From Eledone cirrhosa (lineage: Eukaryota), in assembly GCA_964016885.1 (NCBI GenBank), contig OZ024747.1, positions 43,958,001 through 44,022,000 on the forward strand: 64,000 nt of DNA. The letters run 5' to 3'. Each line of letters begins with the position of its first letter. Positions within the stretch are counted from its first letter, which is position 1. The notes under the pieces are model-generated. The model saw only the letters and a program-made list of their open reading frames with translations, did not search any database and was not told where the DNA came from. The position numbers and the translations under genes are program-made. This document shows positions 1,270-63,920 of this stretch, one piece after another.

Positions 1270-2026
1270 GTTCCTTTACCGTTTTCGCAGTTCTTCTGCT
1301 TTTCAAAAGTACAGTTGAGATGGAGGGTCTGTGGTTTTTCTCACATCAGGTATCACGGCTATTGCCAATATAGGTTTGTTTTTATTGATTTATTATTTTA
1401 AATCGAGACAGGCAAACCGTATTATTTTAATTAGTATTTTTCAATCTAGCTAACTTGCTCATTTGCAATACAAACACTTATATACTTGTATCAGTGTTTA
1501 TCCCTATCATATATTCATTTGTATTACACGGCTCGGAAATATTCCTTTCATTGAGCTATTCAAGTGTAAAAGACTATTTGAGTTTATAACTCTATATATA
1601 ATATTCTCGGCTCCATACGTAGAGATAATTTTTAGTCCCATAAAACTGGCTGCTATTTTTAGCGGCACGAGTATGGGACGACCTAGGCGCTGTGACACAT
1701 GTGCGTTCAACAACCCATTTCTCTCAGTCTTCTTAAGTATTTTGAAGTGAAACTTACCAATTTCTGGATACCTACAGAAGAGCACAGGAATAGGAACTTT
1801 CACTTAATTGTTGCGAAACAAATTTAAAATTTAAAATTTAAAATTTGTCCAGGTATCACGGCTGTTGCCAATATAGGTTTGTTTTTATTGATTTATTATT
1901 TTAAATCGAGACAGGCAAACCATATTATTTTAATTAGTATTTTTCAATCTAGCTAACTTGGTGATTTGCAATGCGAACACATGTATACTTGTATCAGTAT
2001 TTATCCCTATCATATATTCATTTGTA
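1270..2026 (-). mobile_element. PLE-like remnant with ~177-bp direct repeats (1347-1524 and 1850-2026) and a degenerate hammerhead at ~1272-1312
   Basis: Direct repeat caggtatcacggct...catatattcatttgtat seen twice. The minus strand reads ctt TTGAAAA GCAG aagaa CTGC GAAA acgg TA aag, a mutated hammerhead core. Confidence 0.5.
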
Positions 2027-3925
2027 TATATATATACATTTATATATATATATATTAAAACATTTATACTCTGCTATGTATTGAGTATCTTACTTACTGT
2101 GGTTACCTCCGATTCCATCCGGAATAACTTATATATATATATATATATATATATATATATATATATATATATATATATATATATATATATATATATAGTG
2201 AGAGAGAGAGAGAAAGAGAGAAATGTGTGTGTGAGTGTGTTTGTGTATGTATGTCTGCTTGTGAAAATATATATATATACCTATTTAAGTATGAGATGTC
2301 TATACATGTGTATGTATATGTGTGAGTATATATTAGAGTGTATATTAGAGTATGGAATTTGGCAAATATGCTCATTTCTCCGAGATCTTTTTATCAGTAT
2401 TGCCTGCACTCTGTTAATGATCAACATATATATACATGCTGTCAACGACAGAACATTGCATTCTATGCATACTGTCATCAGCACAACAAATCATTCAACA
2501 CACTGCCATTAACAAAACTTATCAAACTATATTCTACATACACCGTAAAATTAAATTCGTTACCTTCCGGCTTATTTTTAATGAACACACGTGTTAGTGA
2601 GATGATCACATCAAACACGTAATCCTCCACACGTCCCATATAGGCTCATTTGTTACATGTTTACACCTCTCTTCGTTTATATCTATGTACTCTCACGTTT
2701 CTCTGAGGACTTGAAAAAATAACATAGAGATAAAATTACTAAAGTAAATGAACACTTCCATTTGATTATGAGTTTGCATTTGTTAGACCCACAGAACTGC
2801 GTATTCATTAAATTATAGTGTAAGTAGCTGGGTATTCTACAGATATGGGCCAATAACATAACCCAAAGACAATCAAATACACATTCGGTTTATCGAACGG
2901 TTTTCTTGTTCCTATCTACAAAACTCCATTACCAACGTGTGAGTCGTCCCGAAGCAATGAGAAACCCCATTGGATCAAGATCAAACTTGGAGTATAAACA
3001 TTATTGAGAATATTTTTTTTTAATAATTGGCCATTCTTGTGCACAGTTGCATGTACTATTATTTAGACCCTATGTACACACGTAAACACATATACATATA
3101 TGAATTCATACACACACAAACAAGTATATACACTCTATCAATCTGCTTTATATAACACAAGTACATATAGGTTTACATACACACACAGACGCTCAAATAC
3201 ATATATTCCGCCAATCTATCGTGTAAAAAGCTGCGTCTATTTCTGTTCCAGAACATTGTCAATATGTTGCAGTTGACATGTCTTAACGTGTTCGAATGTG
3301 TTCGCTTTTCCGTAAACGTTCGGGAATCTTTTCGACGTCGGAAAAGACTAGAAAATTTCACATCTTTCATAGAGCTTTTAATGGACAAACAACTTGATTT
3401 TACCAACAATCAATAATTTAATTATTCCTACAATTGGACCAATTCGTATCTTCCCCGTTCAACGCATTGCTCACCTTTCTTCCTTGAAGTCGTTCAGCAT
3501 CTCAAAAATTGTTGAATCGAAGTACCGTGGATTTCATACAAGGCATCCCTTTTATGCAATCTGACTGTTTTCGATCAATGCCTGATATTTTATTCTATAA
3601 TCATTGTTTATATATCTTTCTGATGAAATAATTGTTTTGTTTTTATTTGAGGCAAATGGAACGACAAATTCTACAGAAATATAAAATCGTATCTTGAATC
3701 AGAGAATGCCTGAAATATATAATCCTTGATAAATCGAAAAGTTTCATAGAAACAAACACTTCTACTCCAATGAAACACAAATTTAAGAATACTATTTTAT
3801 TATGATCTTGGTGAAAATTATAAATAAACGAAGCACAAAGAAGCAAAATATGCCTGAGAAGAACGATAGGCAGCGAATGAATCACAACGAACAAGAATAT
3901 CCAAACGATGACCACAGTAAATGAA

Positions 3926-4002
3926 CAATGGGTGAGGGTCACAATAATGGGTGAGGGTCACAACAATGGGTGAGGGTCACAACAATGGGTGGGGGTCACA
4001 AC
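3926..4002 (+). repeat. 19-bp tandem repeat x4 (CAATGGGTGAGGGTCACAA)
   Basis: Four near-identical units are directly visible. Confidence 0.9.
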
Positions 4003-62684: not shown

Positions 62685-63697
62685 AAAGAATTAGTATATC
62701 TACTAACATATATATACAGATGCATACCTATGCCAGCAAATATATAGGTTTTGTCTTAGTAACTTTGTGGTTCAATGCAAGGGGATGCCGAACAATAATA
62801 TGAAAAACGTAAAATAAGAAAATTATAAAAATTAACTTACTAAAATTTCACTCCAACTAATTAGTTTCTGAAAGGGAATAAACATGGTTTCCGAAGAAAC
62901 GCACGGAGAAATCCTTTCGTCATCAGGGAAGTCTATTCTCAGCTAAGTTTCCAGGCAATGCGTGGACACAGGGAACTTATACAAAAATAATTCAGTGGAT
63001 GGAAAAAAGCAAAGCGTAGACTAAGTCCAGCAAATATATAGGTTTTGTCTGAGTAACTTTGTGGTTCAATGCAAGGGGATGCAGAACAATAATATGAAAG
63101 ACGTAAAATAAGAAATTTTAGTAAGTAAGTTAATTTTTATAATTTTCTTATTTTACGTCTTTCATATTATTGTTCGGCATCCCCTAGCATTGAACCACAA
63201 AGTTACTAAGACAAAACCTATATATTTGCTGGCATAGGTATGCATCTGTATATATATGTTAGTAGATATACTAATTCTTTATAATTATCTCCAAATTATT
63301 TTGTTGAGCAAAAATTTGCCAAAACTGCTACTATAGTTCATAGTAATGGTTCGGCTGCTGTCTTCTTAACACACCACTCCTCACTGATTAACCTCGAAGT
63401 CACGTGATTGATTCTTTTGAATTTGCCACCGACCGAGTAGGCAGTGATTTTTTCAATGTCTTGGAACTTAGTCCACGCTTTGCTATTTTCCATCCACTGA
63501 ATTATTTTTGTATAAGTTCCCTGTGTCCACGCATTGCCTGGAAACTTAGCTGAGAATAGACTTCCCTGATGACGAAAGGATTTCTCCGTGCGTTTCCTCG
63601 GAAACATTGTTTATTCCCTTTCAGAAACTAATTAGTTGGAGTGAAATTTTAGTAAGTAAGTTAATTTTTATAATTCTCTTATTTTACGTCTTTCATA
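62685..63697. mobile_element. Complex fold-back PLE-type remnant between (TA)n tracts
   Basis: 62685-62845 is inverted at 63120-63282, and 62805-63027 is inverted at 63463-63695. A hammerhead-like CTGATGA..GAAAC lies at ~63567-63611. Confidence 0.75.
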
Positions 63698-63831
63698 TAT
63701 ATATATATATATATATATATATATATATGTGAATATAGATATAGAATATTCGAAAATATTCTGTATGTTTATAATAAACATTTTGAAGACCTAATCGCTA
63801 TAGAATAGAATACGTCACGTATTACAATTAG

Positions 63832-63920
63832 ATTCTCGATAAAAGCAAGGGAAGTAATCTACGCGTTTCATTCTTGTTAGAATTCATCAGGACTACATAT
63901 CCAGTGCTTTTATCGAGAAT
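63832..63920 (-). ncRNA. Type I hammerhead ribozyme with perfect core, enclosed by a 16-bp stem
   Basis: The minus strand reads gtagtc CTGATGA attct aaca agaat GAAA CGCG TA gattac. Outer inverted repeat attctcgataaaagca (63832-63847) / tgcttttatcgagaat (63905-63920). Confidence 0.9.

What the first reader, a model, noticed from the sequence alone, without database searches (positions are those of the whole stretch)
1270..63920. About ten different type I hammerhead ribozyme families in one 64-kb window, mostly on non-coding fold-back elements in (TA)n
Seen in sequence: CUGAnGA...GAAA...NUH cores with pairing stems at 10597, 11159 (and 8782), 16020 (and 15178), 23905, 25542 (and ~22850), 28122 and 63832. 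Degenerate versions occur at 1272, 9620, 14566, 16887, ~49705 and 63567. Stem sequences differ between families, and both minimal forms (palindromic stem III: CGCG, GTAC, CAATTG, CCGG) and long-stem forms are present. Established: Penelope-like elements carry type I hammerheads in their pLTRs, and minimal forms are thought to cleave as dimers. Inference: this genome holds a very large, diverse, unannotated population of ribozyme-bearing pLTR or retrozyme-like elements mobilised by PLE RT/GIY-YIG proteins.
Basis: partly seen in the sequence, partly recalled or inferred. Interest (0 to 1): 0.75.

Follow-up and report, generated by a model that had tools for sequence, protein, structure and literature searches.

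The report
Penelope hammerheads and two-armed retrozyme arrays
The self-cutting-RNA motifs are real and this window is ordinary for a genome packed with them: most are ends of Penelope-type jumping genes, and three are non-coding repeats whose two-armed arrays carry the Penelope insertion footprint, likely because a Penelope enzyme copies them round and round from a small RNA circle (cutting and circles untested).

Summary
Confirmed: 13 sequence families of type I hammerhead (HHR) motifs lie in the window; 5 pass a strict descriptor (shuffles: mean ≤0.12). The window is typical: 104 spaced 10-kb blocks give 121 strict hits (about 116/Mb, roughly 340,000 genome-wide). Several 'degenerate' sites are the known U3-A8 variant or are intact. 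This is what Cervera & de la Peña 2014 described. Three families (310, about 540 and 528-558 bp) are non-coding tandem retrozymes. The window's last motif starts an 8+3 two-armed array of a young 310-bp family (13,422 matches). All 31 two-armed arrays examined have one long and one short fixed 3' end, which is the PLE tail. They also have random inner ends, and 25 of 26 scorable arrays share one haplotype across both arms. This is footprint evidence for the published but unproven PLE rolling-circle model. Cleavage and circular RNA are untested, no RNA run was listed, and no genomic trace of cutting was found. The scan noted a similar 316-bp retrozyme elsewhere in this genome.

The parts
1274..1309 (-). 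Family L HHR, U3-A8 core; stem III has one change in this copy; PLE 3' UTR
   Evidence: 12 of 15 hits in 1.04 Mb span the core; endonuclease 0.8-1.4 kb upstream in 2 of 18 homologs
7232..7340 (+). Permuted-order hammerhead-like motif (second copy 538 bp downstream, 7770-7878); not in the finding
   Evidence: Stem I and III pairings read by eye, with compensatory changes among 17 homologous hits
8052..8968 (.). Family G fold-back: about 540-bp non-coding unit, more than one unit long, HHR cores broken (8789 has C3->A)
9615..9714 (-). Family K HHR, U3-A8 core, long stem II, palindromic stem III; pLTR of a Hydra-type PLE. K end fragments also at 17189-17265, 23243-23327, 25185-25365, 25688-25944, 46349-46451
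   Evidence: 5,861 pattern matches, control 0; PLE protein upstream on the same strand in 10 of 16 loci; 3,118-bp tandem
10559..10915 (.). Family B fold-back; intact minimal HHR + 10597-10639 (GTAC stem III); the minus copy has G5->U
   Evidence: 6,627 matches, control 0; GIY-YIG 300-390 bp upstream in 3 of 30 loci and in L103
11000..11738 (.). Family G element; intact-core HHR on the minus strand 11160-11252
   Evidence: 562 matches, with tandem spacings of 537-540 bp; no ORF above 32 aa
14565..14611 (-). Family M HHR, U3-A8 core, CCGG stem III, weak stem I; pLTR of a Neptune-type PLE
   Evidence: 2,048 matches; endonuclease 1.0-1.2 kb upstream in 3 of 12 loci; 4.7-4.9-kb tandems
15022..16215 (.). 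Family D: 5'-truncated PLE with inverted copy; GIY-YIG fragment 15488-15823 (+), HHR + 16020-16064 about 200 bp after its stop, HHR - 15178-15221
   Evidence: PF01541 E 4e-5; same layout in 5 sampled places, HHR 196-315 bp after the stop
16594..17090 (.). Family E fold-back (relative of D) with about 30-bp tail on the left arm; HHR + 16882-16926 has an intact core and decayed stems I/III
   Evidence: 3 of 4 homologs follow a GIY-YIG stop
22754..23242 (-). Family C 5'-truncated Hydra-type PLE: endonuclease C-terminus ends at 23073, HHR 22846-22888
   Evidence: same 190-bp spacing in 5 of 16 loci, with an endonuclease hit in a sixth
23907..23943 (+). Family H minimal HHR (CG stem III); old, diverged family
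   Evidence: 78 matches with invariant stem II and free loop II; weak PLE hit upstream in 1 of 12 loci
25374..25611 (.). Family C fold-back with about 65-bp tail; intact HHR + 25542-25584 (CAATTG stem III)
   Evidence: 4,848 matches, control 0
28134..28185 (+). Family I HHR, core broken in this copy (A15.1->G); carrier element not resolved
   Evidence: family intact in 4 sampled loci; endonuclease upstream in 1 of 7 homologs
46452..49899 (+). Family J: 5'-truncated Hydra-type PLE (inverted 5' piece 46452-46627, ORF 46772-48283, 1.6-kb 3' UTR); pLTR HHR 49701-49760, core broken here (G12->A)
   Evidence: 85 scored copies 93-100% identical, many with 745-750-aa open frames; the HHR core lies 1.3-1.5 kb after the stop in 27 of 29 other loci; DKT, CxCX5C and CxxC/CxH motifs as in PMC8557442 section 11
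62686..63695 (.). Family F two-armed non-coding retrozyme (unit 528-558 bp in relatives); intact HHRs - 62848-62930 and + 63562-63641
   Evidence: 6,978 matches; 14-unit array in L159, longest ORF 27 aa; compensatory stem II changes; no endonuclease upstream in 0 of 27 homologous hits
63721..64000 (-). Family A: first unit of an 8 (minus) + 3 (plus) two-armed array of a 310-bp non-coding retrozyme that runs about 3.3 kb beyond the window; HHR 63854-63896, predicted cut between 63860 and 63859

Best explanation
The window holds ends of at least eight Penelope-like retrotransposon families, each with its own hammerhead motif, and three non-coding hammerhead repeat families (retrozymes) that are likely inserted by the same Penelope proteins, the 310-bp family likely by reverse transcription running repeatedly round a circular RNA. 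Shown: PLE families carry one HHR in the pLTR; insertions sit in (TA)n, are 5'-truncated at random places, and often have an inverted second arm with one long and one short fixed 3' end (the tail). The 310-bp family has the same footprint, but each arm is a tandem of identical units. Inferred steps: (1) A tandem array is transcribed and neighbouring HHRs cut as dimers through the palindromic stem III. (2) The monomer is ligated to a circle. (3) A PLE RT/endonuclease, probably a dimer, nicks (TA)n and starts cDNA at two internal sites about 139 and 165 nt 3' of the cut site, one on each target strand. (4) Each RT runs round the circle until it drops off. (5) The two 5' ends join, giving a two-armed array of one haplotype. 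In the autonomous PLEs the HHR is probably not needed for insertion and uncut RNA is the usual template.
For: Motifs are real and under selection. Among 16 possible 3/8 base combinations in 1.04 Mb, C3-G8 gave 117 hits and U3-A8 gave 8; all others gave 0-2, and reversed controls 0-2. Family F stem II is 100% paired in 11 copies with 2 pairs changed on both sides, covariation score 0.218 against 0.091 shuffled (0 of 500); more stem II types appear. PLE linkage. Family A: 13,422 HHR matches, 1,050 long ends, 1,303 short ends, all controls 0. In the first 202 Mb of C1, 57 of 79 long ends have a divergent short end within 16 kb (chance 0.4% each), with 0 long-long pairs and 1 short-short pair. Of the 15 arrays taken without regard to arms, 12 are two-armed. 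All 31 two-armed arrays among the 36 loci have one end at +163-170 and one at +126-140. The autonomous family J follows the same one-long-one-short rule in 4 of 4 clear inverted pairs. 31 arrays with >=2 units fall into 17 haplotypes, with 2.98 differences per unit between arrays against 0.18 within; 25 of 26 arrays with full units on both arms share the haplotype across arms. 0 of 334 units have a private indel within 4 nt of the cut site, and 0 of 16 private variants in 90 matched unit pairs are mirrored between arms. 66 inner 5' ends show no departure from uniform over the unit (KS p 0.18), 2 lie near the cut site against 2.3 expected, so RT does not stop there. Array spans (median 2.4 kb) do not differ from inverted insertions of the coding families K (2.7 kb, p 0.86) and M (1.8 kb, p 0.20). 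Literature: tail = two RT start sites inside the RNA, predicted dimer (PMC11167929); circle-templated tandem cDNA proposed (PMC7229834).
Against: No cleavage, expression or circular RNA is shown. 5' ends of truncated copies show no pile-up at the predicted cut site in 14 scorable families, so there is no genomic trace of cutting. None of 8 single motifs folds better than shuffles (z -1.9 to +1.3), and only A and B take stems I and II as their minimum-energy fold. No Rfam gathering match. I did not find the PLE that moves family A: a profile of its end region hit only non-coding relatives, none with an endonuclease upstream. An uncut multimer transcript from a young homogeneous array would give nearly the same footprint. 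L222 switches haplotype along its long arm, which fits either a template switch or a mixed linear template. L212 repeats two private variants 7 units apart and L211 repeats two, so some long arms were also extended locally. 20 of the 36 loci were chosen from the end-pattern lists, 16 of them because they were paired, and 34 of the 36 lie on one chromosome. Published minimal HHRs cleave weakly (PMC4209133), and 8 of 9 Xenopus retrozyme dimers did not cleave (bioRxiv 10.64898/2026.07.22.740005).
Confidence: 0.72

Rival explanations
1. PLE proteins copy long uncut tandem transcripts read through from a few homogeneous master arrays. No circle is needed, and the HHR is a passenger or cuts rarely.
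For: In vitro the Anolis PLE uses mainly unprocessed RNA, and HHR mutants insert normally (PMC11167929). No trace of cutting in 5' ends. One haplotype covers 10 of 31 arrays. L222 has a haplotype block shared by both 3' ends and then a switch.
Against: 17 haplotypes are each fixed across whole arrays, which needs repeated one-unit bottlenecks followed by re-expansion. 0 mirrored private variants in 90 matched pairs. Without a circle, arm length could only shrink between generations. The intact HHR and dimer palindrome are kept in nearly every unit and across diverged relatives with C3-G8/U3-A8 swaps.
Confidence: 0.17
2. Each retrozyme locus is a single short PLE-type insertion that later grew into an array by unequal crossover or slippage (satellite model, as discussed in Li et al. 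2026), or by RT stutter during insertion.
For: Periodic repeated variants in the two longest arms, L212 and L211. Earlier notes on other genomes describe local stutters.
Against: Both arms are multimeric in most arrays and have the same unit boundary and length in all 35 loci with an HHR. Within-array divergence is 0.06% per base. Spans match ordinary PLE insertion lengths. There are no indel scars at the junction.
Confidence: 0.07
3. The motifs are chance matches or assembly artefacts in AT-rich repeats.
For: Single motifs are not thermodynamically exceptional. One relaxed hit inside the J ORF and +4418 are evident false positives.
Against: 121 hits against 0-8 in shuffles and 1 in reversed sequence; 3-8 pair rule; stem covariation; array-specific haplotypes and fixed ends in (TA)n.
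Confidence: 0.02

Closest known systems
Minimal type I HHRs in pLTRs of EN+ Penelope-like elements (Cervera & de la Peña 2014, PMC4209133; parts 1-3 of 4 read: results, discussion, methods)
   Same: Many heterogeneous families per genome, extra nucleotide 5' of stem II, short stem I, palindromic stem III, U3-A8 variant, mostly solo copies from truncated PLEs, opposite-strand pairs 100-700 bp apart.
   Different: Load: about 116 strict hits per Mb here, against about 9,000 (Xenopus tropicalis), 4,000 (coelacanth) and 2,000+1,300 (Schistosoma) per genome there; descriptors differ. Tails here are 26 to about 110 bp depending on family, not only 30-40.
Metazoan non-LTR retrozymes (Cervera & de la Peña 2020, PMC7229834, passages read; review PMC7761336, passages read; Li, Clavereau & Pollet 2026, bioRxiv 10.64898/2026.07.22.740005, parts 1-3 of 5 read)
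   Same: Non-coding, low-GC tandem units with one type I HHR each; coexist with PLEs; proposed to move through circRNA and PLE RT.
   Different: The two-armed layout with fixed long and short ends is not described in what I read ('inverted' and 'opposite' occur 0 times in PMC7229834). The 2020 review says no motif reveals the mobilising element. Li et al. support a PLE origin by co-occurrence and pLTR homology and discuss local amplification. F and G units (528-558 bp) exceed the 170-400-nt range. Expression is untested here.
Hydra- and Neptune-type C-terminal EN+ PLEs (Craig et al. 2021, PMC8557442; section 11 and passages read)
   Same: Single RT + C-terminal endonuclease ORF, partial tandems, inverted 5'-truncated copy, one-sided tail, (TA)n targets, HHR in the pLTR. 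J shows DKT, an RWK-like motif, CxCX5C and no CCHH; the C and K endonucleases show CxCX5C.
   Different: Hydra was described as a small set of short (<3 kb) families. Here Hydra-type families reach thousands of copies and J units are about 3.9 kb. Clade calls rest on motifs, not on a tree.
Poseidon_Ac in vitro mechanism (Frangieh et al. 2024, PMC11167929; parts 1-2 of 4 read)
   Same: Two internal RT start sites downstream of the HHR give the tail; both strands are extended; AT-rich targets.
   Different: It was tested on a linear autonomous RNA, not on a non-coding circle.

Membership tests
Type I hammerhead ribozyme | Conserved core (C3/U3-U4-G5-A6-N7-G8/A8-A9, G12-A13-A14, A15.1-U16.1, H17) in type I order | tested here: met
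   Intact in at least one window copy of 11 of 13 families; broken in the window copies of I and J but intact in their families
Type I hammerhead ribozyme | Three helices supported by covariation, including the 3-8 pair | tested here: met
   formally counted for family F only, by eye for the others; stem I is weak in L, M and H
Type I hammerhead ribozyme | Rfam hammerhead model at gathering score | tested here: not met
   0 in the window; best 23 of 52 bits, HH9
Type I hammerhead ribozyme | Self-cleavage 3' of H17 | not testable with these tools
   No assay and no RNA run; the indirect genomic test found no trace
Type I hammerhead ribozyme | Loop 1-loop 2 tertiary contacts of canonical HHRs | not tested
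   Not examined
EN+ Penelope-like element (families B, C, D, E, J, K, L, M) | RT plus C-terminal GIY-YIG-type endonuclease upstream of the HHR | tested here: met
   Full ORF seen for J; endonuclease end upstream for the other seven; J has no Pfam match
EN+ Penelope-like element (families B, C, D, E, J, K, L, M) | Partial tandem (pLTR), inverted 5'-truncated copy, one-sided tail, (TA)n target | tested here: met
   J tandems; K 19 divergent against 1 convergent cluster, M 25 against 0; tails in C, E, J, K, M
EN+ Penelope-like element (families H, I) | PLE ORF upstream | tested here: inconclusive
   1 of 12 (H, weak) and 1 of 7 (I)
Non-LTR retrozyme (families A, F, G) | Non-coding, low-GC tandem unit with one type I HHR per unit, dispersed at many loci | tested here: met
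   A 310 bp, 34% GC, longest ORF 30 aa; F 558 bp, 27 aa; G 540 bp, 32 aa; arrays
Non-LTR retrozyme (families A, F, G) | Unit size 170-400 nt (PMC7229834) | tested here: inconclusive
   Met by A; F and G are larger but inside the 51-972 bp range of Li et al. 2026
Non-LTR retrozyme (families A, F, G) | Expressed as linear and circular RNA | not testable with these tools
   No RNA run could be examined; the A unit folds better than 100 of 100 shuffles (z -3.7), which is only suggestive

The most novel reading that the evidence does not exclude
The two-armed retrozyme arrays are direct genomic casts of a Penelope RT dimer performing rolling-circle reverse transcription on one small ribozyme-made circular RNA. 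Each retrozyme family is addressed to a PLE family by the two start sites that define its tail. This genome, at roughly one hammerhead per 9 kb, is an extreme host in which that cycle is running now.
Probability: 0.6. Interest if true: 0.62.

Novelty: new member of a known kind. Interest (0 to 1): 0.45.

Why it matters
The headline (many HHR families on PLE ends) is known biology at an unusually high load. The useful part is family A. How animal retrozymes spread has been a hypothesis since 2020 (circRNA plus an unidentified RT, PLE suspected), and a 2026 preprint discusses local amplification instead. More than 1,000 young, nearly identical insertions with exact start sites, two arms and array-wide haplotypes turn this into a concrete test: a defined 310-nt circle, two predicted priming sites, and intact PLE ORFs from the same genome. 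Most ribozyme copies are invisible to Rfam thresholds, so hammerhead counts in such genomes are underestimated.

Tried and rejected
DNA search of the genome with the family A motif returned nothing because common words are skipped; patterns were used instead. The repeat finder was swamped by microsatellites. My first descriptor missed motifs with an extra base or a mismatch at stem II, and the second misses stem II loops above 60 nt such as K, so counts are not exact. Sequencing runs: no RNA holder listed. Contigs from 4 runs of unknown kind cover the unit, and three give a 340-nt looped contig, which a tandem array also gives; not used as evidence. Search for the partner PLE of family A by blastn and nhmmer over the loci then held found only non-coding relatives. 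Test for 5' ends at the cut site: one of 15 families (c6) was dropped because its query ended in (TA)n and matched microsatellites, and bins upstream of the site partly reflect subfamily divergence. -26611 has a core and hairpins but lacks U16.1 and has no homolog; not counted. My permuted-order scan returned nothing even for 7326 and 7864, because their stem II partner lies elsewhere. Lünse et al. 2017 was not held (recalled only), so I could not check whether the A13->C variant is described. Searches for prior description; none returned a paper on two-armed retrozyme arrays. The words 'octopus' and 'cephalopod' came from a recalled resemblance; the organism was not determined. Supplements were not read; figure S9 of PMC7229834 and those of the 2026 preprint could bear on novelty. 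PMC6962438, PMC6155905 and PMC11722881: passages only.
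Full report
Observation. The window is AT-rich animal DNA full of microsatellites, fold-backs and retroelement ORFs. It lies at G000:C7:43958001-44022000 in a 3.0-Gb assembly. A strict type I hammerhead descriptor finds 5 motifs where shuffles give 0.06-0.12 on average and at most 2; a relaxed one finds 7 against about 0.5. 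With homologs from elsewhere in the genome, all 16 named sites resolve into 13 families, A-M. Eleven families have an intact core in a window copy; I (28139) and J (49709) are broken here but intact in their families. 63566 and 62926 are intact, not degenerate. 1272, 9620 and 14566 carry the U3-A8 covariant core described in PMC4209133. Rfam finds nothing at gathering score and one sub-threshold HH9 match.

Is the window special? No. In 104 evenly spaced 10-kb blocks (1.04 Mb, contigs C1-C15) the strict descriptor gives 121 hits (4 shuffles: 0-8; reversed sequence: 1) and the relaxed one 160 (shuffles 7-12), in 43 clusters of which 19 have more than one member. That is 116 per Mb (bootstrap 76-165), or roughly 230,000-490,000 genome-wide. 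Tandem arrays inflate the figure and long-loop families are missed. Pseudo-windows of the same size have a median of 8 hits in 6 clusters. Exact patterns give A 13,422, B 6,627, C 4,848, F 6,978, G 562, H 78, K 5,861 and M 2,048, each with control 0. Published totals I read are 120,000 in the 28-Gb axolotl, over 6,000 in 16 families in a coral, about 5,000 in a mussel and about 9,000 in Xenopus. The load here is therefore high, though descriptors differ.

Selection on the fold. Only C3-G8 (117 hits) and U3-A8 (8) occur above background among 16 combinations. Family F stem II shows compensatory changes (more types). H keeps stem II while loop II varies, and K varies at N7. Single motifs do not fold better than shuffles, as expected for minimal, dimer-type motifs but giving no support.

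Most carriers are PLEs. D has a GIY-YIG fragment 200 bp upstream of its HHR inside the 15022-16215 fold-back. C has its endonuclease end at 23073. The 49709 motif is the pLTR of the PLE at 46452-49899, whose relatives have 745-750-aa open frames and the HHR both after and, in tandems, before the ORF. B, E, K, L and M are linked the same way in other loci. J shows the Hydra motifs of PMC8557442, and C and K share its CxCX5C linker. B, D, E, L and M look Neptune-type by their cysteine linkers where seen (motif call, no tree). Inverted pairs are divergent (K 19 against 1, M 25 against 0) and end at two fixed sites per family. This is the known PLE insertion pattern and explains the fold-backs in (TA)n.

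Three carriers are retrozymes. A (310 bp), G (about 540 bp) and F (528-558 bp) have no ORF above 32 aa and occur as head-to-tail units. The last motif of the window begins an array of 8 minus-strand and 3 plus-strand units between two (TA)n runs. Across 36 loci, all 31 two-armed arrays have one end at +163-170 and one at +126-140 from the predicted cut; 16 of those loci were picked as pairs, and 12 of the 15 loci picked without regard to arms are two-armed. Genome-wide there are 1,050 long and 1,303 short ends, and 57 of 79 listed long ends face a short end, with no long-long pair. The 26-nt offset is the PLE tail, which PMC11167929 traces to two RT start sites inside the RNA. Arrays are internally near-identical (0.18 differences per unit) but differ between loci (2.98; 17 haplotypes in 31 arrays), and both arms share the haplotype in 25 of 26. 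Inner ends are random and not enriched at the cut site, junctions carry no indel scars, private variants are not mirrored, and spans match coding-PLE insertions. A has diverged non-coding relatives of about 377-380 bp that keep the end region but swap HHR stems and the 3-8 pair.

Mechanism. Shown: motif anatomy, PLE linkage, array footprint. Inferred: dimeric self-cleavage of tandem transcripts, ligation to circles, and two-ended target-primed reverse transcription by a PLE protein that rolls round the circle. The main rival is an uncut multimer template. It is disfavoured by the many array-wide haplotypes but not excluded; L222 fits both. Local unequal crossover contributes to some long arms (L211, L212) but does not explain two multimeric arms. 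Against function in vivo: no pile-up of 5' ends at the cut site in 14 families, and no partner PLE identified.

Novelty. PLE hammerheads and retrozymes are known kinds, and these are new members. I found no description of two-armed, tail-bearing retrozyme arrays in the texts and searches named above, but supplements were not read. An unreviewed note of this scan reports Penelope-type ends on a 316-bp retrozyme in this genome, and 862 notes in this genome fit the word hammerhead. No look-alike of family A was indexed. Verdict: real, typical for this genome, mostly known biology, with one testable mechanistic lead. Interest 0.45.

Noticed in passing
window 7232-7340 and 7770-7878 (+): Two copies, 538 bp apart, of a hammerhead-like motif with its parts in permuted order (cut site and GAA box upstream of CUGAnGA); stems I and III covary among homologs. 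It resembles the permuted family in earlier notes on this genome.
   Followed up: partly
L140, L141, L145, L156: A relative of family L keeps a U3-A8 core, stem II and CCGG stem III but has C at position 13 in 5 of 5 copies; either a tolerated core variant or a dead ribozyme in a family that still spread.
   Followed up: no
listing: A subfamily of K has C3 with A8 (broken 3-8 pair) in about one fifth of the 100 listed copies, suggesting that the PLE spreads without a working ribozyme.
   Followed up: no
window 26560-26650 (-): CUGAUGA core flanked by two hairpins in type III-like order but without U16.1; no homolog in the loci held.
   Followed up: partly
L222 (G000:C1:136719000-136726400): Family A array whose two 3' ends share one haplotype while the long arm switches to another for 15 units; a possible template switch between two circles.
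   Followed up: partly
Tail length is family-specific (A 26, E about 30, M about 35, C about 65, K about 90, J and F about 105-110 bp). The matching geometry of F and J suggests J-like Hydra PLEs move F.
   Followed up: no
window 31453-37429 (-) and 39403-42835 (+): Non-LTR retrotransposons: a 1,141-aa RT ORF with C-terminal restriction-like domain fragments among (TTA)n, and a frameshifted APE-RT element.
   Followed up: no
window 51151-53878 and 56527-61470: Long minisatellites with 33-bp (83 copies) and 80-bp (61 copies, 96% match) units.
   Followed up: no
Runs labelled with four different organisms hold the family A unit, three at low depth with 1-2 differences; contamination, diet or close relatives, not resolved.
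   Followed up: no
L108, L114, L040: Further non-coding HHR repeats of about 460-600 bp in direct and inverted copies, not present in the window.
   Followed up: no
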